This document shows positions 602-63,932 of a DNA stretch of 64,000 bases, piece after piece. The notes beneath the pieces are model-generated. The model was not told where the DNA came from. It searched no databases and worked only from the letters and a program-made list of their open reading frames with translations. This DNA comes from Antedon mediterranea (taxonomy: Eukaryota; Animalia; Echinodermata), in NCBI RefSeq assembly GCF_964355755.1, contig NC_092671.1, positions 23,634,070 to 23,698,069 of the forward strand, in the 5' to 3' direction. The translations under genes were made by a program, and so were the position numbers. How positions within the stretch are numbered: position 1 is the first letter of the stretch; every line of letters begins with the position of its first letter.

Positions 602-35105
<34,504 letters not shown>

Positions 35106-35295: not shown

Positions 35296-36450
35296 ATTAA
35301 TAATAATAATAATATTTATTCGGCAAAAGTTCATAAAGTACATTTTACAATTCATCTTGCCAGGAGCAAGTAATAGGCATGAGCCCAAACAGAAAACTGC
35401 TCTTACTCCATCATTACTTATAAAATACAAAAATAACAAAACTAAGTAGCACAAATTAAGTCAAAATAAAACAAAACAAAGTTATAATGAGACACACCAA
35501 TTAAAAATAAGCTGCATTGAATAAACAATATAAACAATTACAACTTAATATTTTGAGATCAAATGTTTGATGAGTTGGACTTTAAAGTCTGAAATTGTAG
35601 CACATTGTTTAATTTCATTGGGAAGTTGCTCCCATAATCTAGGGAAAATAACAAACCGCCCTTCACACCTCTCACTTGATCTCACAAACTCATTAAAGGA
35701 TGATGGACAGAGGCCATGCATTATTTTAAAACCTAATGTGAGTCTATACACTTTAAATATATCTTCAATACTTAAAATATTTAGGGTCTTTAACCTATAT
35801 AAATATGAAGTGTCCCAATTTCCTTCTTTTCTGTACATAATTATTCTAGTGGCCTTTCTCTGAACCCTTTCAAGTCTATACATATGAGATATTTCAGTAG
35901 GTGCCCACATACAACAACAGTAAGTCACAACAGGTAGTATTAGTGCTTTGTAAAGATTTAGCATTGCCATCCAAGACATTGCTTTACTACATCTTGAAAC
36001 AAAACCAAGAAGTTTGCTTGCCTTACTACAAACATAATATACATGAGAGTGGCATGTTAATTTACTGTTGATATACACACCAAGTAGTTTGAATTCATGG
36101 ACTCTTTCCGTTGAATCGGAATTGATATCGTAAGCAAATATGATGGGATCTTTACACCTGGATAAACTCATTGCTGCACATTTTGATGCATTTAATGGTA
36201 GTTTATTTAAAACTGACCATTCATAAATCTTATTTAAATCACTCTGTAACTTTATACAGTCTTCTAATTCATGAATAGGTCTTGAAATGGTATTGTCATC
36301 TGCAAATTGAAAAATTGAAGATTCTATACCATATTCAAGATCACTCACATACAATAGAAACAAAAGAGGGCCAAGAACTGACCCCTGGGGTACCCCTGAT
36401 ATTACATTCTTCCAATGCGATATTTCACCTCTATAGATAACTCTTTGTTA
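35296..36450 (-). mobile_element. 5'-truncated CR1-group LINE
   Basis: GVPQGSVLGPLLFLLYVSDL, FADDNTI, LQSDL, LERVQRKATR (ORF 35545-36363); (TTA)n tail at ~35300. Confidence 0.88.
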
Positions 36451-37522
36451 AGTTAACAATAAAAAATTACTTGCACCTATATTCAAGTATTTTAATTTCT
36501 TATATGCTACTACATGATTATTATGAAAAACATTAAAAAGGGCCATCTGTGGGGATAGCTATAATTAAAAACCTTTTTCCCTATTCATTTGTTTTAAAAA
36601 ATATATTTAAGTTCCAAAAATATTATACAAATATGTTTTCAGAGCCTTCGTAAACCAAATATTTGATTTTGGATGTGATTTTTAGCGTACTTACATTTTT
36701 GTGTAATAAAAAACCTACTTAGGCCAAGTGGGTAATATTTAGTTTCTAGAGAGTAAAACAATCTGCGCATGCGCCAGCCTTTTTGGTTTCCTCCTCTTGC
36801 TGCTCTTTGTCTCTAGATCTCTAGCTTCCACAATCTTCACAAATATAAAACACTGTAATATGAATTAAGATTGAGAAAGAAATTGTTTTGCATGGAAAAT
36901 AGAGGGATCAAAACAGGAATGTTTAATCATAGGCCTAGACCAGAAAGACATGGTTATGCGTTTGAACCAGAAGCTATTCCTGCCAAAGATGTAAACTCGG
37001 ACTAGGCCTCACTGCAGCGTAAAATTAACCAGCAGTAAACAATACTAGACTAGGCTATGAATGAGGTAGGTGCCACCCGGAGAGGTAGAAATTCTCATAT
37101 GACTTTTCTAGACCAGTTTTTTCTGGGGAATCCAAATATATTGGGTAAACGGGCTGTAACCTAAGAACTTTCGCGTGAGGGCGCTTTTTCAAAATGGCCA
37201 CCAGTTACAGTAGACTATGATATCTTGGCAACCACTGGTCATAGAGAGTTGATTTTGGTGTCAAATTGTTCGGAATGTACATGTTCCTATTTGATGTAAT
37301 ACCACATTTTGTCCGAAAACCGGAAATACCTCTATTGACCTTTGACCCAATATCCAACAGATATATCTCCGTAACTACTCGACACAGAAAGTTGTAATTG
37401 GTGTCAAACTGTCCAGAATATAGATGTTTATATTCAAACTAATAGAACATTATCTGTAAAAATGACCGGAAATAACGTTACTGACCTTTGACCCAAAATG
37501 CAAGACATTTATATTATATTAA

Positions 37523-38494
37523 TATAAATCCAAAGGCAAATTACTGAAAAAAATGACAATGCTGTGGGTATCAGTGGCTGGATCTTAATGGAGATACAAA
37601 AATAAAAAGCGAAAAGCTAAATCAAAACGATAAAGTAAACAGCCAGAAAAGTTAGCAGAGCTTTCGGGCAACACTAGCCCTTCATCAGTGCAAGTGAAGG
37701 AATTTGGATAACGTCAGAGTATAAAGCTGGCAAGTGCTGCCTGGGTGGACAGGAATAAAAGAAATATAACAAAGGGAGCCAGGGTGGAGTCTGAATAAGA
37801 GTGGAAAACAAAGAAGGTAGCTTGGTAGAGATATAAACAATTTTGGAATGAGACTAAAAAACAGCTTAAATGGTGGTTAATATTGAAACTTAAATTTTGG
37901 TAGTCAATGGAATAATTTTACCGATCTGGGAGTATGTTCCTAATGTTAAGTCCAAAAGGTTTTGTGGTTTTAAGTAGTAATTCCCAGTGGTTTTCTTTGT
38001 CTTTGCGAGTTTTGTCGCTCCATTTGACATCGTGGTGTATTGCAATAACTCTGAAATTTGCAATCGAGTGACCAGCTGAATTAAAATGTTCGGCTACAGG
38101 TTGATCAAGCTTTAATGTTTTGATAGCTGATCTATGTTGTGTCATTCTCATACGGAGAGTGTTTTTTGTTTCTCCGACGTACTGTTTGCCACAAATATTA
38201 CAGTATATGAGATAAATGACGTTTTTGGTTAGACAATTAATTGATTGTCTTATCCGAAAAATGCGGCCAGTTTGGTTACTCTCAAATTTTTCAGTAGAAT
38301 CAACCAATGAACAAGTTTTGCAAGATTTGCCGCAAAGGTGACTGCCCAAATTTTGGCTGTCATGAGAGTTAATTTCACTCTTAAATTTGGATCTGACTAA
38401 TATATCACGAAGGTTGGGAGGTCTACGAAATGCAATAATGGGTGGTTCCGGAAAAACAGTCCTGAGACGTTCTGTGGACTGTAGAATGGGCATA
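37523..38494 (-). mobile_element. 5'-truncated Penelope-like element (GIY-YIG endonuclease with upstream Cys cluster, Neptune-like)
   Basis: ORF 38493-37918: AFRRPPNLRDILV, CGKSCKTC, NVIYLIYCNICGKQYVGET, R..QH, PFGLN. Flanked by TA-rich runs; 3' terminal segment repeated at 63744-63890. Confidence 0.9.
37653..37694 (-). ncRNA. Minimal type-I hammerhead ribozyme of the Penelope element
   Basis: Minus strand reads UUGCA-CUGAUGA-A-GGGC-UAGUGUU-GCCC-GAAA-GC-UC/UGC: catalytic core, stem II and a very short stem III. Confidence 0.75.
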
Positions 38495-38720
38495 TGTTAT
38501 ATATTAATATATAGCATAGTTTTGCATAAATTGATGATGTTTTAGTACAAAGAACAGAATGAAAATACTAACATAATTTTTTAATGGTTCCAAACTAGCA
38601 CTAGCTTTTTTTAAAGAAATAATTCTACCATAGTTTTGCGGGGACGTAATTCAATACTATCAAGAATATTGAAAGCGTTATACTGAGTTTCTCTCTCTAT
38701 TTCTCTTTGTTTTATTTCAG

Positions 38721-40905
38721 TAACAAGAATACCAACACTGAATGTCGAACCGTAAGTAATTTTTATTCTCTTGACATTACAGTGCTCAATACCATGGTTA
38801 GAGCTTAATACAATATTATTATATATATATATATATATATAGTTCGAGTCTCGGTTGGGACGACTTTTTCTCATTCTCACAGATTTCCTCGTCTTTATCG
38901 TTTCAAAAATTAAATAATTTTCAGTGTATCACCGGGCGGTTGGGAATTTATTTCTATACCTGTTGTGTTTATATATATATATATATTTTTTTTTTCATAT
39001 AGTACGCTTGTAAGAGTTCCCTCGGAAGAGTGTCCATCATTCAAACCGAGAAGAGAAGATTCACTAGACAAAGGTAAATTAAAGTAAATGCATTATTGGC
39101 GAACGATACTATTTAACGCTGGTCACATGATTGTTATAATAAATATTTTTTCATATAGAATCAACGCAGCAACAATGATACTATTTAACGCTGCTCACAT
39201 GATTGTTATAATGTATATTGTTTTCATATAGAATCAACACAGCAACAATGATACTATTTAACGCTGCTCACATGATTGTTATAATATATATTTTTTCATA
39301 TAGAATCAACACAGCAACAATGATACTATTAAACGCTGGTCACATGATTGTTATACGGTAATATATATTTTTTCATATAGAATCAACACAGCAACAATGA
39401 TACTATTTAACGCTGCTCACATGATTGTTATAATATATATTTTTTCATATAGAATCAACACAGCAACAATGACACTATTTAACGCTGCTCACATGATTGT
39501 TATAATAAATATTTGTTCATATAGAATCAACGCAGCAACAATGATACTATTTAACGCTGGTCACATGATTGTTATAATATATATTGTTTTCATATAGAAT
39601 CAACACAGCAACAACGATACTATTTAACGCTGGTCACATGATTGTTATAATATATATTTTTTCATATAGAATCAACACAGCAACAATGATACTATTTAAC
39701 GCTGCTCACATGATTGTTATAATATATATTGTTTTCATATAGAATCAACACAGCAACAACGATACTATTTAACGCTGGTCACATGATTGTTATAATATAT
39801 ATTTTTTCATATAGAATCAACACAGCAACAACGATACTATTTAACGCTGGTCACATGATTGTTATAATATATATTTTTTCATATAGAATCAACACAGCAA
39901 CAATGATACTATTTAACGCTGGTCACATGATTGTTATAATATATATTTTTTCATATAGAATCAACACAGCAACAATGATACTATTTAACGCTGGTCACAT
40001 GATTGTTATACGGTAATATATATTTTTTCATATAGAATCAACACAGCAACAATGATACTATTTAACGCTGGTCACATGATTGTTATAATATATATTTTTT
40101 CATATAGAATCAACACAGCAACAACCGTTTTATTCGGCGGGTCGTCGTCGTCAACGACCTCAGCAAACAGCTATTCAGTATGAAATGGCAGAAACATGGT
40201 GGATGACTCCGTGGTGGACTGACGATGCTGATGGTAATTTGTATTGTTTGTTTTAGCAACGTAATCTTATATCTATAGTGTATTATTATTAATTATACCA
40301 TAGTTTTGTTCACATGAATGTTATGATGTATATATATATTTTTTTTTTTTTCATATAGAATCAACTCAGCAACAACCAACACAGCAACAACCATCACAAT
40401 CGGTTCGTCAACGAACTAGAGGCATGTTTTCGTGGTAAGTTTACAAACTATTGTTATTGTTTATGCAGGAAAATGCTCCCAAAAACATCGAAAATATCAT
40501 TTTTTATTTACGTTATGTAACAAACTTCTGCCTTTTAGGAAAGAATACGCCTTTAATTCAGAAGAAGACGACAAAAACAATGTTGGTTTTCTTATAGTTT
40601 CGTCGTGCTCTTCTAAACATAACAGCGACACGTTAAAAGTAGCAGACTTATTACAACGGAATGGCTTAACCTATGTTAGAATGAAGCCAACGAAAGACAA
40701 GCAAACAATAATGAAGCATGTCAAAAGATGTAAACGCGTTATTGTATTTCTAAATTTATTTTTTGAAGATTACGTCAATGACGTATTTAATATCTGCACC
40801 GAAAATCTGGGGATGGTGGAGACAATTCTACCATTCAAAAACAACATTTTGGATGTAGCGATTTTTTCAAGCGGTATTGTCATGAACGTATTGAAAAGAA
40901 AATAG
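38721..40905 (+). CDS. Uncharacterised spliced gene (5'-partial) with Gln-rich linker and C-terminal TIR/SEFIR-like domain
   Basis: GT-AG exons 38721-38751, 39003-39073, 40108-40233, 40359-40434 and 40539-40905 join with matching phases and no stops. The last exon has GFLIVSS..SKHNSDTLKVADLLQRNG and IMKHVKRCKRVIVFLN. Domain call is by eye. Confidence 0.6.
38840..38975 (+). mobile_element. Truncated copy of tRNA-containing (TA)n-associated element
   Basis: Matches 63588-63720; (TA)n on both sides. Confidence 0.75.
39104..40125 (+). repeat. Minisatellite, 14 units of 72-77 bp, each containing a 3' splice-site sequence
   Basis: Unit GATACTATTTAACGCTGSTCACATGATTGTTATAATATATATTTTTTCATATAGAATCAACACAGCAACAAT. 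Confidence 0.95.
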
Positions 40906-40916
40906 TTTTATTGTCA

Positions 40917-41259
40917 ATGATTTGTCAAGTGTTTTACCCGTTCATGTTGGCATGATCAATATTTGCTCAAACTCCATTTTATCGTTATGTGTGTAGTATT
41001 TTAGAGATTCCCGATCATCGTAATAATGATATAACTAGAATTCATAACCGTGTGTTAGATTCCACGCGTATTATATACTTATTGTCTCACTTTAAATCCT
41101 TCTCTCGTTATTCACCCGATGTATTTAGATCAAAAAATTGTACCTGAGCATGAAAGGTTAGTTGTTATGGTACAAGGAATCGGCCCAGAAAATAATTTGT
41201 TTTCTTTTCTGTTAAATTATTATTATGTTTGTGAAGTGTATTGCAATAGATTTGTTTAA
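40917..41259 (+). pseudogene. Degraded ORF with a TIR-like segment
   Basis: ATG at 40917, in-frame TGA at codon 13, then ...IHNRVLDSTRIIYLLSHFKSFS...; probable frameshift near 41125. Confidence 0.35.
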
Positions 41260-41444
41260 TGAAATGAAATTAATTATGTTTTGACTTAATTTAATGTTGG
41301 TGTAAATTTGTAAAAGTAGTTTTCCTATTTTAATCGACTTAATTTAATTTGTTTTCTTTTCTGATGAAGTATTATTATTATTATGTTTTGTAAAGTGTAT
41401 TGCAATAGAATGTATAATAAATAAATAATGAATAAATAAATAAA

Positions 41445-42640
41445 GATGCATCTATTCCAGTACCCAAAATTCCAAACCCTAAGATTTTGAATGACTACCG
41501 CCCAATAGCCTTAACCTCGATAGTGATGAAATGTTTTGAAAAATTTATGTGTAACTCAATTATTACTCCCTTATCCCTCCCTTATCCCATTTAATTGATC
41601 CATATCAGTTTGCATACCAATCATGCAGATCTGTCGATGATGCGATACTAACTCTTACCGAACTGCTGAACCAGCATACAAATAACTCAAGTTGATAAGT
41701 TGATTAAATTAACAGAAGGTAACCATAAGTCGAATGTGATCAACACAAATATAGGATCACCCCAAGGATGTGTGTTAAGCCCCCTCTTATTTATTTTATA
41801 TACCAACTTCTAGTAGCATACATTATTTAAAATACGCGGATGACACCGCCATTGTTGGCCTATTAAAAAACAGAGCTAGTGAAACTGAATATCATGATGA
41901 AATTGTTGCTTTTTCGAATTGGTGCAAGACAAATTGCCTCTTACTAAACGAAAAGAAAACCAAAGAAGTAATAATTGATTTTCGAAAAAAATGTACTGCT
42001 CTGGTTCCCCTAAACATTAATAATTAATTGAATCTGTTGATAACAAATTTAGCTGGGAGAAACACTGTAAAAATACTATACTACTGTTCTTTCTCAGAAA
42101 ACTGAGAAATTATGGGGTAGATAGAACTGTATTAAATTTATTTTACTCTTCGATTATGTGCTCACTTTCTGTTGTGTTGCCTGGTTCTGTGGATGTAGAA
42201 CAGAAGAAAAAACCAGATTACAACGAATATTAAATAAAGTAGGTAGGATCACAGGATCTAGACATAATTTGGATGACCTTTGCAACAAAATCATAAGAAA
42301 TAAGGTTATGAAAATATGCGACGACTCAAACCACCCTTTAAATAAACATTATGTTAAAATGAGATCAAAAAGACTAAATGTGCAGAGATCATGCAATAGT
42401 AGGGTTATGCGATATTTTAATTCTTTTGTTCCGTATTCCATTAAATGATATTGCATAATTTTTGAAATTTTTGATGTATTGCAGCTTTTTATTATTTATA
42501 TAGTCAATTGTAGTTTTATGTTCATACTTGTACATTGCTAAATAATATATAGTGTTTTTAAATATTGCAATTAATTATTTTTATATGAAACGTTTTATAT
42601 ATTTTTGTACTATATGTGGACGAAATAAAGTTATCAATCA
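41445..42640 (+). mobile_element. Rex1/Babar-like LINE RT fragment (degraded)
   Basis: PVPK.P.PKILNDYRPIALTSIVMKCFEK, DPYQFAY, GSPQGCVLSPLLFILYTN, KYADDTAIVGL; AATAAA near the 3' end. Confidence 0.85.
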
Positions 42641-43049
42641 GTTAAATTTTGTTTTTAACAACAACAAAAATGAAATTTGATTTTTGCGTGTTATTTAACT
42701 CCGTATGATGTTTTTCTATTTTAATTATACAAAAAGAAAACAAGTTTTTGAATTTTTGTTAAATGTAATTGCAAACACACATGATTGTGATTAGAAATAT
42801 TCTGTTTTCTTTTTTTTTTATTTTAAACAGTACAGTAGGTCTATAATGTAAAGTTATATTTTATATATAATAAGTATTACAAATATAAACATACAAAATG
42901 TATAGCATAGATTTATTAAATTTAAATACAATTTCTTTATTTCAAAATGAATTTCATTTTCTACGTGTTTTCAATTTTAATCTTTTTCCTTCCTACACAG
43001 AAACAAATTCTGAACGAAAAAAAAAAAATTAGTAAACGAAACACGCGCA

Positions 43050-43487
43050 TTATAAATAAAATAAATAATTTAAGAATCTTTGTAAACTACCCACGAAAAA
43101 AAAAAGAAACATACTAACCGATTCATCGTTATTACGAAGTTCAAATAACGAAAACTTTTCCTTGAAAAATCCACAGGAGACACGTTTTACATTTTCTAAC
43201 TGCAATTCAGTGTCACATTGTGTCGCAACACATGTACATACAACGAGTCCTGTCACAAGTGTGCCGACATTTATTTTTCTATCGCTCATCATTTGTTCTA
43301 ATACATAATACAGCGCTTCCGAAGAAATATCTTTACACAATTCTAACACATTAAAATTGTTTTCCAACTCTTTACAAGCACGAATTGATTGATTGATAGT
43401 ACTCTGGAGGATAGGTGAATCCAAAACAACTAACCCCGTCAATTTATATTCAATGTATGCTAAAACTACTTCCTCTAAATCAACCAT
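43050..43487 (-). CDS. Intronless divergent Bcl-2-fold protein (145 aa), probably virus/Polinton-borne
   Basis: ATG at 43487. BH4-like EEVVLAYIEYKL, BH3-like SIRACKELENNF, BH1-like YYVLEQMMSDRKINVGTLVTGLVV and a hydrophobic C-terminal tail. Confidence 0.7.
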   Translation of the reverse strand: MVDLEEVVLAYIEYKLTGLVVLDSPILQSTINQSIRACKELENNFNVLELCKDISSEALYYVLEQMMSDRKINVGTLVTGLVVCTCVATQCDTELQLENVKRVSCGFFKEKFSLFELRNNDESVSMFLFFFVGSLQRFLNYLFYL

Positions 43488-44149
43488 AACGCTCGACAAA
43501 ACAAATGATAATGAATGTAATTACCAAGAAAGTTACAACTTAAAACATTTATTTTTGTTTTTAAAAAGGAGTTGTAACATAGAAACTAATTTTGTCAGGA
43601 AATGTGTTTTTATTATTTATGTGATTTATTTGTGTTTAGAAAGTTACAACATTAACATTTAATTTTGTCAAAAAATGTGAATATACGGAGCCGAATGTAA
43701 TTTTTGATCCTTAGTATAGTGTGAGATTTTATAAACAAAAAAAAAGAGCGAACGGAAATTAAGGATTGCAGATTAGACATATAGAAATGGATTGAAATTG
43801 GAAATCCACATGATCAAAGAAAAGAAACCATCGTTCCGACAGAAGCTAATGACAATTACAAAGGATGACACAGTTTGAATAGAGTAAATACCGTATAACA
43901 TAATTAAATTTTGTCAAGATAGTTGTAAAAAATAAATAAAATATATTATACCGAATTTACTTTGTACATTATTTAATTTAGGCCGTAATTAGGTTTGTTG
44001 TTCATTTATGATTGTGAAAAAAAATACATACGAATAAAACAGCTATATATAAAAAAAAAATGATTCAGTGTTATAATTTTATTTACCTGTCATTATGTTA
44101 ATAAAAAATATTCTAAATTTAATTTATATCACGTTAGATATATTTTCAA

Positions 44150-44880
44150 GGACATTTCTTACATGAAAATAAATTTGTAAAGAAATTTGTTAAATAAGAT
44201 AAATTTGTTAAGAAGTTTGTTTCATAAACATATTTGTGTAGATAAATTTGTTACATAAAAATAATTTTGTAAAGAAATTCGTTACATAAATTTATTTTTA
44301 CAAGAAGTTTGTAACAGAAAATATTTTGCAAAGAATTAGTGGCATCAATTGATTTTATCAAACGTATGTAACATAAAAAAATTATGTTGTTAAAAAAAAA
44401 AATATTTTGTAATTCAGTCCATTGGCTCAGTAGTTTGTTTAAGTTTTTAAGTATTATTTGTGTAATATTCTTGTAAATAAAAGAATTTATTTTTAACCTT
44501 TGTAATTATTTTGTAAATATCATTTATGCAATTTTATTTTATTTTTTTATTTTTATTTTTTTTTGTGTAAATAATTGAATTTATTTATACTTTTTGTATG
44601 GAAATAATTATACTAATATTAAATATCATTATTTGTTTATAAATTTAATTGTGATTATAGATTCTTATTTATTTAGTATGTCGATTAAATTTCAGATTCA
44701 GAAACATGTTACACAAGAAACAAAAATTGTCATGAAATTCGTTACATAAAAAATAATCTATCAAGAATCTTTTTTTACATAAATTTAATTTTATCATTAA
44801 ATTTGTTATAAAATTTATTTTGTCATTAAATTTGTTACATAAAAAATAAATGTTTCATGATTCTTGTTACAATTTTTCCT
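44150..44880 (+). repeat. Degenerate short tandem repeats (AAATTTGTTACATAAA), two blocks
   Basis: Motif recurs at roughly 30-bp spacing at 44150-44400 and 44700-44880. Confidence 0.6.
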
Positions 44881-44924
44881 TTTGTTCAACTACTTATATA
44901 AAAATTCAAGTTAAGAACGCAATG

Positions 44925-45160
44925 ACAATGACTGGGCGTTTAGTGTGATTAGCGGACCGCCTTCCTCCGGTAAATCGGTATTTGTTAACATTCTTTTAGA
45001 GAATAATTACTTTGACAAGTCGTTTGATGATATGACATAGTGTTATGGCGAATATCAAACTTAGTTTACGGAACTAATTACTGCAACATCTGACATAAGT
45101 TTTACGAACATTGGATGTTTTCGATGTTAGTAAATAACACAATGGTGAATAACTAGATGT
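44925..45160 (+). pseudogene. Polinton/Maverick-type packaging ATPase N-terminal remnant
   Basis: Translates FSVISGPPSSGKSVFVNILLENNYFDKSFDDMT*CYGEYQT*F: Walker A followed by the (W)CYG.(W/Y)Q motif of Polinton ATPases; contains stops. Confidence 0.7.
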
Positions 45161-45666
45161 TTGTTTACACCTTCACTGCTATGATTACAGTTAGAATGTC
45201 ATAACGGGTAAATAGGTATTCTTTAAAGAATTAGGTCTATAAAACAATTAAATTGTCGAGTTGCTTGACGTTAAAGAAGTAAATGTTGTTTGTGTTTACA
45301 TGTGTGTCATAGTAGAGAATGAATTATAAAACCATTACATTGTCGAGTTTCTTGACGTTAGAAAAGTAAATGCTGTTTGTGTTTACATGCGTGTCATAGT
45401 AGAGTTTGTAATTACGGTTTTTTTTTTCAATATAAATGTATTATATGTTGTTGATAGTTGTGTAAAAAAAAAAGTGTTTACATGCGTGTCATAGTAGAGT
45501 TTGTAATTACGTTTTTTTATTCATTTTCTTCCAAATTCTATTTAATTTTTGAGAAAATGGGCAACAACTTTTCATATGAATACAGTATATTTTATTAAAC
45601 TACTTTCTAAAAATAAAATCACTTCTAATGGGTGTATGGCCACCCAGCAGATCACACAGGTTGAAC

Positions 45667-46721
45667 CTAGAACAAATTGTAACAGAATTTCTTTTTTGTT
45701 TTGTCTGGTTGATATGTTCCAAATGAACATCATATCCAAAGTTTACCAAAATCTGATCGAGAAGTTGGTTAATTAGCATAAATTCAAAATGGCCGCTATT
45801 TACATTAATAATTTCAATTAGCATATTTAAATTACCATATGACGTACCTACAACGTCATATATTATGTTATATTATCCTATTCTAAAAAATGTATAAACT
45901 GCAGGAAAACAAGTTTCTTAACATTATCCAATGGATAATCGGACATCAAAAAGGGGTCAATTAGCATAAATTCAAAATGGCCAATATTTACTATATCATT
46001 TAGAAGTTATGTATCTTCATAACGTTGGTTTTAGACCACCCAAGTGCATACTAGGTGATACAAAGGTGATAATTAATCTTTCAAGTTAGCATATTTAATT
46101 ACCTTGTTATAAAATCATATTAAATCATATATGATGTTTCTGAACATTTTTCTGTTGAAATGAACATATCATTGGAAGGTTGTGTTGGAAATTATGCGTA
46201 CTATATGAAGTACCATAAGATAGTTATCATCATCATATCACATCATATTATATCACAGTAATGCTCATAATCATAAAGGAAAATGTAAAAACTGCATAAA
46301 ACCAACTTTCTTTAAAATTTTCCTGTTGAAATTGATCATTTACAAAAATCTCATTCTACAGAACATTTAACACACTTCTTATGTCCAATTTTGGATATGA
46401 TGTTCATTTCAACAGGAAGCTTATTTTCCTACAATTTCTACATAGGATAACATTTAAGTACTACCTTATGACGTCATAGGTACGTCATATGGTAATTTTA
46501 ATATTCTCATTGGAAAGATTAATACCACATTTATATCAACTCGTAATACACGTAAGGTGGTCTATAACCAAACGTTCAGGAGATACAAGGCTTCAAAATA
46601 GTAAAGGGTGGCCATTTTGAATTTATGTAATTAACTTCCTTTCCGATGTCCGATTTTGGTAAACTTTGGATAATATTATGTTTATTTGGACCATATCAAC
46701 CAGACAAAAATTCTGTTCTAG
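45667..46721. mobile_element. Foldback-like element with long imperfect inverted repeats
   Basis: TTTGTCTGGTTGATATG...CAAAGTTTACCAAAATC (45700-45755) is inverted at 46650-46710; further arms at 45830-46100 vs 46460-46630. Confidence 0.65.
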
Positions 46722-57293: not shown

Positions 57294-60200
57294 ATGTTTT
57301 CAAAAGAACGAACAAAGTGTTTTTATTGCAAAAAAACATTAAGAAGAGATAGGCTGCGAAGCCACATTTTGACTGTCCACGGTGCAAAGTTTAGGTACAG
57401 AGAGTCAGTACCACCAGGAGGAGGGTTGCACAGATTTACAACAAGATCAGACAACAGGCCTACGACTAATCTTAGAGAGGAAGACCAATCTGTGACTCAT
57501 TTGCAGCCCCAAACTATTGTGCCAATGGAAATTGAGGTAGGACTGTATAATAAAGCAAATTGTATGATAATATTAAATAGGCCTACATCATTAAAAAAAA
57601 ATTAAATAATAAATTATTGTAGGTAAAAATGGTTAATGTTTTGTAGTCAGTTGATAGTGAAAGTATGTAGATAAATGACGTGTATAATCTATGGGACGTA
57701 AGATCCGCTTATCAGAACGATTCTAAAAAATGTTAACATTAATATTATACATATTTTTATACAGGTCCAACCAGAGACGCATGCGCATGACTTCGGGACA
57801 GTTGGGGTATCGTATATTTCAATTTCTAAACACTAGTGCCAATAATAACAATACTACAGTACAGTATTTAATTGGTTATCCGCTCTTTTGATAGTATAGT
57901 TATTAAGTTAAGATAAATGTATAACTCTACTCGATTCATCATTCGTCACATCACATATCACTATATTGTAAGATAAATATCTGAGCATCGTAATGATTAA
58001 ATTCAATAAGTATACACCTTATTACTTTCAACAGGACCTGGACCAGTGGAATGATAGCAGTGATGTAGAAACCGACACTTTAAAAACAGCAATCGGAAAC
58101 GTTTCCAAACTACAAGACGACAAAGACGCACAATTAAGTGAGCCAACAATCGAGCCTAAAGACATGAACATACTTCAAATAGAAGAAATCCAGAAAGAAT
58201 CGATTTCGCTATTGCTCGATCCACAAATTCGTTTCCAACAGATCCAGCACTGTTTGTGAACAAAATAAGAACACCAGCGTTTGTTCGGGCAGTTATGGAA
58301 AAAGGTCCATGTCAACCAGGACTACATGAACCCTTTAAATTTCCACAAAATAAATTATTGAGATCATTCCGACCGTCCTGGTATTACAGGGATATGAAAA
58401 ATGGCCTTAAATCTGTTAGAGATTGGCTAGTATATTCAGTAAAGAAAGATTGTGCATACTGTTTTCCGTGTTGGCTGTTTGCAGATAGATTAGATAATCA
58501 TTTCAATTCATCATTTATAGAACCTGCGCATGGATTCGTCAAGTGGAAGAAAGCTACAGAGAAGTTTCGCGCTCACGAACAGTCATCTATTCATCACGAT
58601 TCTGTAAGACAATTTGTAGCGACCACCAAACGTCTTAACATTGGCATGACTGTAGACAAACAGCAACTCAGAGTGTATGAGCAGCAAATTGCGCAAAATA
58701 GAGCGGTGTTGCACCGTCTGCTTGATATAACATTCTTTTTGGCCAAACAGAACCTTGCATTTCGGGGACACAGAGAACTTCGATTTAGTTGTACAAGCAA
58801 AGTAAAAAGTGAAAATGAAGGCAACTTTTTAGAATTAGTTAAGCTTCTGTCCAAATACGATGGGGTATTGGCAAAGCACATAGCCACAAGTCCTCGACAT
58901 GCCATGTACATGAGTCCTAAGATTCAGAATGACTTTATAAACGCACTTTCTGAGGAAGTTACACGAATGATACTGTCGCATGTCACAAGTGCTCACTTCT
59001 ATGGTGTTATACTTGATAGCACAATTGATGTTTCACACAAAGACCAGTTATCGTTCTGTTTGCGATACGTAGATGATACCTTTGTTATTCAAGAACGCTT
59101 TTTGCAGTTTGCAGATTTAAAGTCTAGCAACTCAGAAAATTTGTTCAAACAATTAAAAGTGCTTTTGGAAAAACATGGATTAGATATAAAGCGGATTCGT
59201 TGTCAGTCATATGATGGAGCCAACAACATGTCTGGTCATTTAACTGGTTTGCAGGCTTGCGTAAAAAAAGAAAACTCGTCTGCTACATGTGTACACTGCT
59301 GTGCACATAATTTAAACTTGGTACTGGTACACGCGTGTAATGGATGTGTTGATGCTGTAACTTTTTTTGGGACAGTGCAAAAGCTCTATACATTTATCAC
59401 CGGGAGCCACCCACGACTGGATATCTTTCAAGATGCTCAAGACGAGCTTAAAATGAAGAGAACAACTTTGCAAAGGTTATGCGAAACTCGAAGGTACTGT
59501 AAGTACAAAGCAGTAAAGGCTGTTAAAGATACTTACCCAGCAATGTTATTAGCTTTAGAGAAGATTGTAGGAAGGGAGAAAACTCCTGAAAATGTAGGGG
59601 AAGCACAGGGCCTATTAGATGCCATCAGCAAGTTTGAGTTTTTAGTTCTATTGGAAATGTGGATAAACATTTTAGCAGACATCAACATTCTTTCTGAATA
59701 CCTTCAGAAAATAAAGATAGACGTGGTTACTGCGTCAGCTATGATTACAAGCACAACTGAAATAGTAACTAAAAGACGATCAGAAGAGCATTTTAGGGAA
59801 TGCATAAATACAGCAACGTCCATTGCTGCAGAAGAGGAACTCACTGCGACATTCACAAGGCGAAGACTTCGTAGACGAAAAAGAATGCCAGGAGAACAAG
59901 CTACTGATGAACCCCCATGAAGATCCAAAAGACAGATTCAGAAGAGACGTATTTTATTTTATATACGATAAGATTATTAATGAACTTTAAAACAGATTTG
60001 CTGATTTCCATAACCGGGTTAGACCTTTCGGCTGCTTAATGCCTGCTAATTTGGGAAAAATGGACATGTTCAGTGATTTAGCTAGGTCATACTCGGAAGA
60101 TATTGATATTGGACTAGCTGAAAAAGAATATGAACAGTTTTGCTTGCTGTATAAAGAACTTAAACCTGAGAAAGGAACTATTGAAACTTTGCAAGATATG

Positions 60201-60485
60201 CTGCATTGGGTTTTCAAAAATAGTTTACACACTGCATATCCAAACATGGGAATCCTTTTTCGCATATTTGCAACAATATCGGTGGCTTCTGCCACAGCAG
60301 AAAGATCATTCAGTAAGTTGAAACTCGTTAAAAACTACTTGCGGTCAACCATGGGAGAAGAACGGCTATCATCATTAACCCTAATATCAGTTGAAAGAGA
60401 CCTTTCTGAAAATGCAAACTTTGACAGCGTTATCAACACATTTAGTCGCATGACAGTTACAGGAAGACGAAATATTCAACTTTGA
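57294..60485 (+). pseudogene. hAT transposase (ZMYM1/DUF4371-type with hATC dimerisation domain), spliced, frameshifted
   Basis: Exons 57294-57536 (C2H2-like CFYC...H...H), 57766-57807 and 58035-60485. Motifs WLVYS...AYCFPC, LAFRGH, GNFLEL, Y.SPKIQN, ILDST.DVSH.DQL, SYDGA.NM.G, HC.AH.LNL, A.AERSFSKLK..K.YLRSTM...RL. Frameshifts near 58200 and 59918-59990. Confidence 0.88.
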
Positions 60486-60528: not shown

Positions 60529-61208
60529 CCGTACTGACGCGGGTATAAGCCCACCCCCCTCGAACATGAAATCACGTCAAGTTTGGGGGGTGGGCTTATA
60601 CCCGAGGATCCAAAAATGCAGATCGTCAAAAACAGCACATGTACACTGTGTACGTATTCCACCATGCGAGCAAGCGCCCTCACGTGTACGACGTTGCCTC
60701 TAACTAAATACACGAGGTGTAGAGTGTCGGAAAATTAAGCTTATAATTCGTGTAATTTATCGTAGAATATCTTATTTTAAACATCAATTTAACAAGAATT
60801 TATCAAGCAGAAAAGCAAGTATACAATGTTCGTTAAATAGAAATGTACCAAAAAAATTTAATAAGCTTGTTTATGGCAGCCGATACCAAATAGTGGTTTT
60901 CCGTTTTGGCGACTTGTATTGTAGCGTCGTGTGTGAAGCGATCTTCGACCGCGATGGAGTGTAAACAAAACAGGACCGCTAGGCCTCATATGGCCTAGCG
61001 TATATTAGCCTAGCTTGGTTATGATCAAAGGTAGGTGTATTCGGTGTATGGACGTCGCCAAATACAAAATAATGTATTACGACATACACTGTAGATCTTC
61101 GAATTAATGGGTGGGCTTATACCCGAGTGCCTCATTTTTCATGAAAATTTGTCAAAAGTTGGGGGTGGGCTTATACCCGAGTATGGGCTTATACCCGCGT
61201 CAGTACGG
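60529..61208. mobile_element. Tc1/mariner MITE nested in the hAT element
   Basis: Perfect TIRs CCGTACTGACGCGGGTATAAGCCCA; TA on both sides. Confidence 0.88.
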
Positions 61209-63391: not shown

Positions 63392-63722
63392 ATTATATAT
63401 AAAATACTGAAAGATGAGGGCGTATCAATTTGATCTCTGTTGCGCGTGCGTACAACAACGACTAGTGCTGTTCCGCCGTACCACGCCGAGAATGTTAAAG
63501 AGTCGCTATCCAATCGAGTTCGAACAATACCATGAAAGCGCCAGTGGTCTAATGGTTAGGACATCTGCATATCAAGCAGGCGGTCCGAGTTTGAGTCTCG
63601 GTTGGGGCGACTTTTTCTCATTCTCACAGATTTCCTCATCTTTATCGTTTCAAATTAATTAATTAAATTTCAGTATATCACCGGGCGGTTAAGAATTACT
63701 GTTCTTTGCCTGATTTGTTTAT
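63392..63722 (+). mobile_element. (TA)n-associated non-autonomous element with an internal tRNA-like sequence (63537-63609)
   Basis: A-box TGGTCTAATGG, anticodon arm TCTGC-ATATCAA-GCAGG, T-arm CCGAG-TTTGAGT-CTCGG; three copies in window. Confidence 0.7.
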
Positions 63723-63743
63723 ATATATATATATATATATATA

Positions 63744-63890
63744 TGCCCGAAAGCTCTGCTAACTTTTCTGGCTGTTTACTTTATCGTTTTGATTTAGCTT
63801 TTCGCTTTTTATTTTTGTATCTCCATTGAGATCCAGCCACTGATACCCACAGCATTGTCATTTTTTTCAGTAATTTGCCTTTGGATTTAT
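63744..63890 (+). mobile_element. Penelope 3'-terminal fragment inserted in (TA)n
   Basis: Near-identical reverse complement of 37523-37669; begins inside hammerhead stem II. Confidence 0.85.
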
Positions 63891-63932
63891 ATATATATAT
63901 ATAAACAAATCAGGCAAAGAACATTAATTCTA

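What the first reader, a model, noticed from the sequence alone, without database searches (positions are those of the whole stretch)
38721..45160. Probable endogenous Polinton/adintovirus-like remnant with a Bcl-2 + TIR/SEFIR immune-modulation cassette between ATIC and MLX
Seen: ignoring the Rex1 LINE and minisatellite, a compact cluster remains of a spliced TIR/SEFIR-like gene, a second TIR-like ORF starting 11 nt after its stop, a convergent intronless Bcl-2-fold ORF, an AT-rich repeat block and a decayed P-loop ATPase with the Polinton signature. Established: Polintons encode an A32/FtsK-like packaging ATPase, and DNA viruses use Bcl-2-fold proteins to block apoptosis or TLR/NF-kB signalling. 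Inference: these ORFs are cargo of one virus-like element acting on invertebrate apoptosis and TIR-adaptor signalling. No polymerase, integrase, capsid gene or Polinton TIR is visible, so the linkage is unproven.
Basis: partly seen in the sequence, partly recalled or inferred. Interest (0 to 1): 0.82.

Follow-up and report, generated by a model that had tools for sequence, protein, structure and literature searches.

The report
Decayed Polinton with surviving spliced cargo
Between two ordinary feather-star genes lies a broken scrap of a Polinton (virus-like jumping element) packaging gene next to two open genes, one spliced, transcribed and repeated in the genome and one predicted to be Bcl-2-like, which are likely the element's leftover cargo, a kind already reported for Polintons except for a possible, unproven TIR immune-signalling domain.

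Summary
Partly confirmed. At 44942-45103 there is a real, stop-broken N-terminal third of a Polinton/Maverick packaging ATPase (profile E 3e-10). No other Polinton core gene, terminal repeat or target duplication was found. The plus-strand gene is real: RefSeq protein XP_071941486.1 of Antedon mediterranea. An identical contig skips its 104-nt GT-AG intron, and diverged copies exist. Its TIR identity is inconclusive (Pfam E 0.2; structural Z about 4, tied with Rossmann folds). The 'second TIR ORF' is not supported: it has an internal stop, no family hit, and lies in the gene's high-copy 3' region. The convergent ORF is probably Bcl-2-fold (Pfam E 0.002, Atlas 0.92) and may carry a 109-nt intron. 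Best reading (0.5): one decayed Polinton whose accessory genes survive. Linkage rests on adjacency, repetition and a shared CpG signature; no copy beside core genes was seen. Bcl-2 and intron-bearing cargo in Polintons are published (PMC8502044; 10.1101/2022.07.12.499685), and this scan already noted spliced Bcl-2 in planarian Polintons. Only TIR cargo would be new.

The parts
37515..38511 (-). Penelope-like retroelement fragment (GIY-YIG) with a 12-nt direct repeat at both ends; left neighbour of the block
   Evidence: Pfam GIY-YIG E 8.5e-5; same 12-mer at 37515 and 38500; end 97.5% identical to 63744-63905
38721..38751 (+). Candidate upstream exon 1 of the spliced gene (no in-frame ATG)
39003..39073 (+). 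Candidate upstream exon 2
39105..40124 (.). 72-bp minisatellite, 14 copies, made of the intron end plus first codons of exon 3
   Evidence: TRF; 13 repeated acceptors upstream of exon 3, 10 of them followed by an in-frame stop
40108..40233 (+). Exon 3, holds the start codon of the 163-aa protein XP_071941486.1
   Evidence: covered in X1, with the following intron uncovered
40359..40434 (+). Exon 4 (Gln-rich linker)
   Evidence: 73 letters on the short side of the spliced joint in X1
40539..40905 (+). Exon 5: 121-aa alpha/beta domain, possibly TIR-fold; present in several diverged copies
   Evidence: Pfam TIR_2 E 0.21; 8 of 50 VIA rows are TIR domains at Z 3.7-4.2; copies 83-86% identical
40906..41440 (+).
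   Evidence: identical X1 contigs 40762-41078 and 41151-41412; 10 (X2) and 18 (X7) contigs carry a variant at 41044; no Pfam, PADLOC or Rfam hit
41445..42640 (+). 5'-truncated, frameshifted LINE fragment inserted into the block (Rex1 label is recalled)
   Evidence: Pfam RVT_1 E 0.005; CpG o/e 0.69, unlike the block
43050..43487 (-). Bcl-2-like ORF, 145 aa unspliced, or 133 aa if the 109-nt candidate intron 43118-43010 is used
   Evidence: Pfam Bcl-2 E 0.0018, below cut-off; Atlas 0.92, 21 of 30 hits in the Bcl-2 set; Foldseek ranks 1, 2, 4, 5 are viral Bcl-2-type proteins at E 0.12-0.54
44154..44868 (.). AT-rich (17% GC) degenerate 30-31-nt repeat block between the divergent Bcl-2-like and ATPase genes
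44942..45103 (+). Decayed N-terminal third of a Polinton/Maverick packaging ATPase (Walker A plus CYGE motif), two in-frame stops, truncated
   Evidence: profile E 2.7e-10, positions 13-66 of 168; reference loci are Polintons
45238..45523 (.). 87-bp degenerate tandem repeat, right end of the CpG-rich block
45699..46709 (.). MITE-like inverted repeat, right neighbour of the block
   Evidence: inverted arms I2, I3, I6

Best explanation
The stretch 38.5-45.5 kb holds a broken Polinton/Maverick packaging-ATPase scrap and is likely the remnant of one such element, whose core genes would have been deleted while two accessory genes kept open frames. The Bcl-2-like gene is predicted to encode a small helical protein that would bind pro-death BH3 proteins and damp apoptosis, as viral Bcl-2 homologues do. 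The spliced, transcribed, repeated plus-strand gene encodes a Gln-rich linker and a small alpha/beta domain that most likely is a degenerate TIR fold acting as a decoy for Toll-receptor adaptors. A Penelope, a LINE and a 72-bp splice-site expansion came later. Shown: ATPase identity and decay, splicing, transcription, multiple copies, absence of other core genes here. Inferred: one element, Bcl-2 and TIR folds, all functions.
For: ATPase scrap: 27 of 119 fetched loci match P0001 at E<=0.01. A profile from 25 such ATPases hits only 44942-45103 (E 2.7e-10; next unrelated 0.11). A profile of only the part before the motif used to fetch the loci still hits (E 2.8e-6; next unrelated 0.05). Three of those loci, checked by Pfam, carry rve+chromo integrase, adenain, jelly-roll, PC4 or pPolB. 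The plus-strand gene is repeated: X1 holds two further transcribed copies at 83% and 86% identity; X2 and X7 hold many variant contigs. Every segment from 38512 to 45545 except the LINE and the very AT-rich block has CpG o/e 1.1-2.6, against 0.2-0.7 for the neighbouring repeats and host genes; odds 1.48 against 0.57, p 6e-10. Bcl-2 and IAP homologues occur in adintoviruses (PMC8502044, section 3.2 and Fig. S2 text). Intron-bearing cargo occurs in nematode Mavericks (10.1101/2022.07.12.499685, passages). 96% of vertebrate Maverick loci are degraded and most lack visible TIRs (PMC8097293, passages).
Against: No pPolB, integrase, capsid, protease or other core remnant in 35.3-47.3 kb: 12 profile or seed searches, best E 0.087, while the ATPase control scores 3e-11. 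No inverted termini in a self-comparison. Neither cargo protein matches any of 1,166 ORFs from 65 Polinton-ATPase loci (best E 0.04 and 0.1). Copy signal is uneven: near-single level over exons 3-4 in X7, rising 10- to 100-fold towards the 3' region, which one intact unit would not predict. The CpG signature is not specific: window 10-18 kb has odds 1.38 and the short gap before MLX o/e 1.09, and the block boundaries were chosen after seeing the data. The ATPase is dead while the two neighbours are open, which fits different ages. TIR fold: the Atlas best hit is a chelatase at 0.80 and Foldseek shows no TIR in its top 50 rows.
Confidence: 0.5

Rival explanations
1. Only the right half (Bcl-2-like gene, AT-rich block, ATPase scrap) is Polinton-derived. 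The spliced plus-strand gene is a separate feather-star gene family, spread by another carrier (Helitron-type capture, 3' transduction or segmental duplication), which landed tail-to-tail with it.
For: The copy gradient towards the 3' end of the plus-strand gene, and loose ends at 40827 showing copies with other upstream sequence. A genomic copy with introns about 95% identical in organism B (X7 records 25, 26). An unchecked note on this genome reports exon capture by a rolling-circle element (e1-10650439). TIR cargo was not found in print for Polintons.
Against: Both halves share the CpG-rich, AT-rich composition and short host-like introns. No Helitron-like ends were identified, and no retrocopy joint was seen in X2 or X7.
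Confidence: 0.27
2. A patchwork. An old Polinton ATPase scrap, a divergent host or otherwise mobile Bcl-2 paralogue and a lineage-specific repeated gene piled up independently in a repeat-rich intergenic gap.
For: The 12-kb ATIC-MLX gap also holds two RT fragments, a Penelope and a MITE-like repeat. The ATPase is 1.4 kb from the Bcl-2-like start and much more decayed.
Against: The Bcl-2-like ORF is short and has no sequence relative among 1.84 billion representatives or in the 5.8-billion set, unlike a conserved host Bcl-2. Bcl-2 is a published adintovirus accessory gene. The CpG signature runs continuously from the ORF to the ATPase.
Confidence: 0.15
3. A Polinton-derived block that the host has kept: the 163-aa gene has been domesticated as a feather-star immune or regulatory gene, and its conservation reflects host selection.
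For: This exact copy is spliced and transcribed and annotated in RefSeq. Among the 13 exon-5 variants displayed, 8 are at third codon positions (p 0.035), 5 are synonymous and none is a stop. A similar copy is in organism B.
Against: Only 40 of 184 variant rows were displayed, so the codon test is small and selected. Transcription of element cargo is common. The 5' end is hit by a Penelope and a splice-site minisatellite.
Confidence: 0.08

Closest known systems
Adintoviruses (animal Polintons/Mavericks) with Bcl2 or IAP homologues, Starrett et al. 2021, PMC8502044 (passages, section 3.2 and text of Fig. S2 read; Fig. S1 slides could not be read)
   Same: FtsK/A32-type packaging ATPase; a small Bcl-2-like accessory ORF; echinoderm hosts appear in their maps (Eucidaris, Strongylocentrotus).
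   Different: Here the ATPase is a 54-codon broken scrap, and there is no PolB, integrase, capsid or adenain. A spliced alpha/beta gene is present; 'TIR domain', 'Toll', 'SEFIR' and 'MyD88' have 0 hits in the stored supplement, which is cut.
Nematode Mavericks with intron-bearing cargo (WASP proteases, KRMA kinases), Widen et al., bioRxiv 10.1101/2022.07.12.499685 (passages read; supplements not seen)
   Same: Spliced, host-like cargo genes in an accessory region of a Maverick, often left beside partial elements.
   Different: Their cargo is proteases and kinases tied to complete elements and shown to transfer horizontally; nothing of that is shown here.
Degraded vertebrate Mavericks, Barreat and Katzourakis 2021, PMC8097293 (passages read)
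   Same: Most loci are eroded fossils without discernible TIRs; accessory regions flank the core modules.
   Different: There the ATPase follows pPolB in one module and intact elements have no introns; here an AT-rich repeat block precedes the ATPase.
Viral Bcl-2 homologues (adenovirus E1B-19K, gammaherpesvirus and poxvirus Bcl-2-fold proteins)
   Same: Small all-helical protein; these are the top Foldseek rows and among the longest VIA alignments, 91-102 residues.
   Different: No significant sequence or structure score (model pLDDT 43). The BH1-like stretch lacks the usual Trp-Gly-Arg (motif recalled). Possible intron.

Membership tests
Polinton/Maverick (adintovirus) | A32/FtsK-like packaging ATPase | tested here: met
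   Broken N-terminal fragment only; profile E 2.7e-10, and E 2.8e-6 without the selection motif; reference loci are Polintons
Polinton/Maverick (adintovirus) | Protein-primed DNA polymerase B | tested here: not met
   Profile from 24 ORFs of 9 loci, best E 0.41 in 35.3-47.3 kb; none in the whole window by tblastn
Polinton/Maverick (adintovirus) | rve integrase | tested here: not met
   Profile from 15 ORFs of 10 loci, no hit at E<=0.5
Polinton/Maverick (adintovirus) | Major and minor capsid proteins, adenain protease | tested here: not met
   MCP no hit at E<=0.5, protease best E 0.38, putative minor capsid best E 0.087. One single-sequence hit at E 0.0013 among 417 queries falls in a dispersed repeat outside the block and is treated as chance.
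Polinton/Maverick (adintovirus) | Terminal inverted repeats with (AGT)2/(ACT)2 or (AG)3/(CT)3 ends and 6-bp target duplication | tested here: not met
   End motifs occur scattered, but no inverted pair brackets the block; motifs from PMC8097293
Polinton/Maverick (adintovirus) | Cargo co-occurs with core genes in other copies | not testable with these tools
   No whole genome is held; laid contigs are too short to show flanks
Bcl-2 family | Pfam PF00452 above the curated cut-off | tested here: not met
   19.3 bits against 31.4; E 0.0018
Bcl-2 family | Helical Bcl-2 fold | tested here: inconclusive
   Atlas 0.92, 21 of 30 hits, but recognition 2018 is below the tool's 2300 mark; seven-helix model at pLDDT 43; Foldseek E>=0.12; VIA Z 5.7-5.8, below unrelated bundles
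TIR domain | Flavodoxin-like TIR fold or Pfam TIR match | tested here: inconclusive
   TIR_2 12.5 bits against 28, E 0.21; model pLDDT 53; 8 of 50 VIA rows are TIR at Z 3.7-4.2, tied with Rossmann folds; Atlas points to chelatases at 0.80
SEFIR domain | Pfam SEFIR match or SEFIR structure among the neighbours | tested here: inconclusive
   No SEFIR row in Pfam at E<=1 or E<=5 or in the fold lists; the model is of low confidence

The most novel reading that the evidence does not exclude
A feather-star Polinton family carries, tail-to-tail, a viral-type Bcl-2 and a multi-exon, transcribed TIR-fold decoy, and so would attack both apoptosis and Toll signalling of an echinoderm. This would be the first TIR-domain cargo reported in Polintons/adintoviruses (not found), and its cargo would still be expressed after the element's core was lost.
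Probability: 0.2. Interest if true: 0.65.

Novelty: new member of a known kind. Interest (0 to 1): 0.35.

Why it matters
If the linkage holds, it adds a crinoid case of Polinton cargo outliving its element and still being spliced and transcribed. If the small domain is a true TIR, it would point to Toll signalling as a target of adintoviruses, whose biology in animals is almost untested. As it stands, the secure part (a fossil Polinton ATPase next to a Bcl-2-like ORF) repeats published observations.

Tried and rejected
No whole genome is held, so copies could not be mapped. Sequence searches for the Bcl-2-like ORF found nothing: 0 of 8 candidates, 0 among 1.84 billion representatives, 0 PDB sequences, 0 of 13 viral stretches. 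The exon-5 domain found only its own RefSeq protein (1 of 2 candidates), two chance-level PDB rows and 0 of 142 metagenome stretches. The ATPase scrap found nothing by word search (0 of 11) or in viral contigs (0 of 84). A motif scan of viral contigs gave 2 unrelated phage loci. Pfam and PHROGs gave it only generic P-loop hits, and NCBIfam none. No RNA holder was listed on record by the look-up of sequencing runs; X1 is treated as RNA-like only because it lacks intron cover and holds the spliced contig. Reads were laid on 40130-42700 only, so splicing, expression and copy number of the Bcl-2-like gene and ATPase scrap remain open. No TIR in the top 50 Foldseek rows, which does not exclude it. 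Rfam: 0 matches at E<=1 in 38500-42700, so no support for a SINE. Rejected: the second TIR-like ORF as an intact gene; the weak THF_DHG_CYH/FolD, JetA, WxxxE, MMTV SAg and HTH_70 hits (all far below cut-off or at chance level). Eight of the 33 Walker-A-bearing ORFs were dropped from the ATPase profile for being under 120 aa. No complex prediction was run, as no specific partner is claimed.
Full report
Setting. The window is animal DNA of about 32% GC. No whole genome is held. A protein encoded here is 100% identical to RefSeq XP_071941486.1 of the feather star Antedon mediterranea. ATIC ends at 35105 on the plus strand. A convergent bHLH gene ends near 47.3 kb (HLH E 0.02; the name MLX is recalled from its exons). 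The 12-kb gap holds an RT fragment at 35548-36447, a Penelope GIY-YIG fragment bracketed by a 12-nt direct repeat (37515 and 38500), the block in question, and a MITE-like inverted repeat at 45.7-46.7 kb.

The plus-strand gene is real. Five candidate exons keep one frame open for 222 codons, with the first Met at codon 60; the remaining 163 aa are the RefSeq protein. Four public runs were laid on 40130-42700 (4 runs, at most 3 samples; X1 and X2 are one sample and may be the source of the assembly). In X1 a 487-nt contig with 0 differences skips the 104-nt GT-AG intron before exon 5, and the introns have no cover. X2 holds the same stretch unspliced (660 nt, 0 differences), and X2, X5 and X7 lack the joint. 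No run is on record as RNA, so X1 is RNA-like by behaviour. Exons 1-2 were not tested. The 72-bp minisatellite is an expansion of the exon-3 acceptor.

The gene is repeated. X1 holds two more copies of exon 5 (45 differences in 268 nt; 26 in 192). X7 (organism B) holds a copy of exons 3-4 with introns at about 95% identity and an exon-5 variant with 38 differences in 278 nt. Summed depth rises from 330 for this copy to 2,473-3,695 over most of exon 5 and 7,045-18,405 over 40818-41419 in X2. In X7 it rises from 165-194 to 2,127-2,381 and then 6,391-44,420. The tool warns that these sums are not copy numbers; the distinct variant contigs (10 in X2 and 18 in X7 at one site) are the firmer evidence. 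Of the 13 exon-5 variants displayed, 8 are at third positions (p 0.035) and 5 are synonymous. Only 40 of 184 variant rows were shown, so this is a hint.

Is it a TIR? Inconclusive. Pfam TIR_2 scores 12.5 bits (cut-off 28, E 0.21), and there is no SEFIR row. The Atlas gives chelatases at 0.80. A single-sequence model (pLDDT 53, alternating strands and helices) has no Foldseek match at E<=0.001. With VIA-align, 8 of 50 rows are TIR domains at Z 3.7-4.2, tied with Rossmann folds and below designed proteins at Z 5.9-6.3. An identical X1 contig runs across the first gene's stop into it (40762-41078), which fits a 3' UTR but does not prove one transcript.

The Bcl-2-like ORF (43487-43050) has Pfam Bcl-2 E 0.0018, below the cut-off, and an Atlas score of 0.92 with 21 of 30 hits in the Bcl-2 set and viral clusters among the rest, though recognition is under the tool's mark. 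The model is poor (pLDDT 43, seven helices). Foldseek ranks adenovirus E1B small T, alcelaphine herpesvirus A9, a callitrichine herpesvirus ORF and a named Bcl-2-like protein at 1, 2, 4 and 5, all at E>0.1 (that the first three are Bcl-2 homologues is recalled). VIA places four Bcl-2-fold structures at Z 5.7-5.8, below unrelated helical bundles. I put the fold at about 85%. No sequence relative was found. A 109-nt GT-AG candidate intron near the 3' end would swap a hydrophobic tail for 10 polar residues, so 'intronless' is unproven.

The ATPase scrap is secure. Read with X at its three stops, it gave only generic P-loop hits. 27 of 119 loci match the scrap at E<=0.01. A profile of 25 ATPases hits only 44942-45103 (E 2.7e-10, positions 13-66 of 168). 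To remove the circularity, a profile of only the part before the motif was used; it still hits at E 2.8e-6 (next unrelated 0.05). The part after the motif finds nothing, so the gene is truncated. Three reference loci were checked and are Polintons. No other core gene is in the gap: 12 profile or seed searches, best E 0.087; 1,166 ORFs of 65 loci gave only ATPase, RT and hAT-region hits across the window. No inverted termini bracket the block.

Linkage is the open point. For it: adjacency, repetition of the spliced gene, and a shared CpG-undepleted composition from 38512 to 45545 that the LINE and the flanking repeats lack (odds 1.48 against 0.57, p 6e-10; minisatellite and a short stretch after the LINE left out, LINE counted with the flanks). 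Against it: the same signature at 10-18 kb, boundaries chosen after the fact, an uneven copy gradient, a dead ATPase beside open ORFs, and no match of either cargo protein to the reference Polintons.

Mechanism. Most likely (0.5) a Polinton inserted between ATIC and MLX and lost its core and ends, leaving an accessory arm. Its Bcl-2-like protein would bind pro-apoptotic BH3 proteins, and its spliced gene would supply a decoy TIR-like domain. Both functions are inferred from fold resemblance only. The rivals are a Polinton right half plus an unrelated repeated gene (0.27), a full patchwork (0.15) and host domestication (0.08).

What is known. Starrett et al. 2021 (PMC8502044; passages, section 3.2 and the text of Fig. 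S2 read, Fig. S1 slides unreadable, supplement cut) report Bcl2 and IAP homologues in adintoviruses. Widen et al. (10.1101/2022.07.12.499685; passages, supplements not seen) report intron-bearing Maverick cargo. Barreat and Katzourakis (PMC8097293; passages) report that 96% of vertebrate loci are degraded. Arkhipova and Yushenova (PMC6431247; passages; authors' names recalled) mention Bcl-2 only for planarian Burro retrotransposons. Two unchecked notes of this scan describe spliced Bcl-2 genes in planarian Polintons; one gave me the Starrett lead. TIR cargo in Polintons was not found: 0 papers, 0 hits in the passages and supplement searched, and 2 papers seen only as listings, neither about Polinton cargo by title. 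No paper held both 'crinoid' and 'Maverick'. The library lacks most subscription papers.

Verdict. A new member of a known kind: a fossil Polinton fragment with probable accessory genes. It is not filed as a complete Polinton, because the core genes and termini were tested and not met. Interest 0.35. The TIR-decoy reading has probability about 0.2 and would merit 0.65.

Noticed in passing
window 39105-40124: The 72-bp minisatellite is a tandem expansion of a splice acceptor plus the first codons of exon 3: 13 decoy acceptors, 10 followed by an in-frame stop. Exons 3 and 4 begin with the same codons, so the gene grew by duplicating intron-exon units.
   Followed up: partly
window 40826-41440: This 3' region is far more repeated than the coding exons in two organisms (summed contig depth up to 18,405 in X2 and 44,420 in X7, against about 330 and 170 for the least repeated contigs; depth is not a copy number). 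High-depth copies carry about 32 extra letters near 40931-40936. It may be a non-autonomous repeat of its own; no Rfam match.
   Followed up: partly
window 58160-60482 (+): hAT-type transposase with long open frames (586 and 164 codons; DUF4371 E 9e-30, hAT dimerisation E 2e-11) and 20-nt subterminal repeats at 60588-61200; possibly recent.
   Followed up: no
window 8741-9472 (-): Harbinger-type DDE transposase fragment (DDE_Tnp_4 E 1e-25).
   Followed up: no
window 4352-6195 (+): Three overlapping long frames (254, 266 and 116 codons), protein-like and ending in a Cys-rich stretch. No Pfam hit for the first two; the third was not scanned. Probably a frameshifted transposon-associated gene.
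   Followed up: no
window 37508-37670 and 63744-63905; 38841-38986 and 63588-63736: A Penelope end (97.5% identical) and a 149-nt intronic repeat (89%) both recur side by side near the right end of the window.
   Followed up: no
window 10001-18000: An 8-kb CpG-undepleted zone (o/e 1.07-1.36) near the 5' part of ATIC, which weakens CpG as a marker of foreign DNA.
   Followed up: partly
L053 1-10663; L046 1-6766; L042 1-8092: Metagenome contigs with Polinton core modules: ATPase, PC4-like, rve+chromo integrase, jelly-roll capsid and adenain in L053; ATPase, integrase and adenain in L046; a pPolB ORF of 1,515 aa beside the ATPase in L042. Used as references only.
   Followed up: partly
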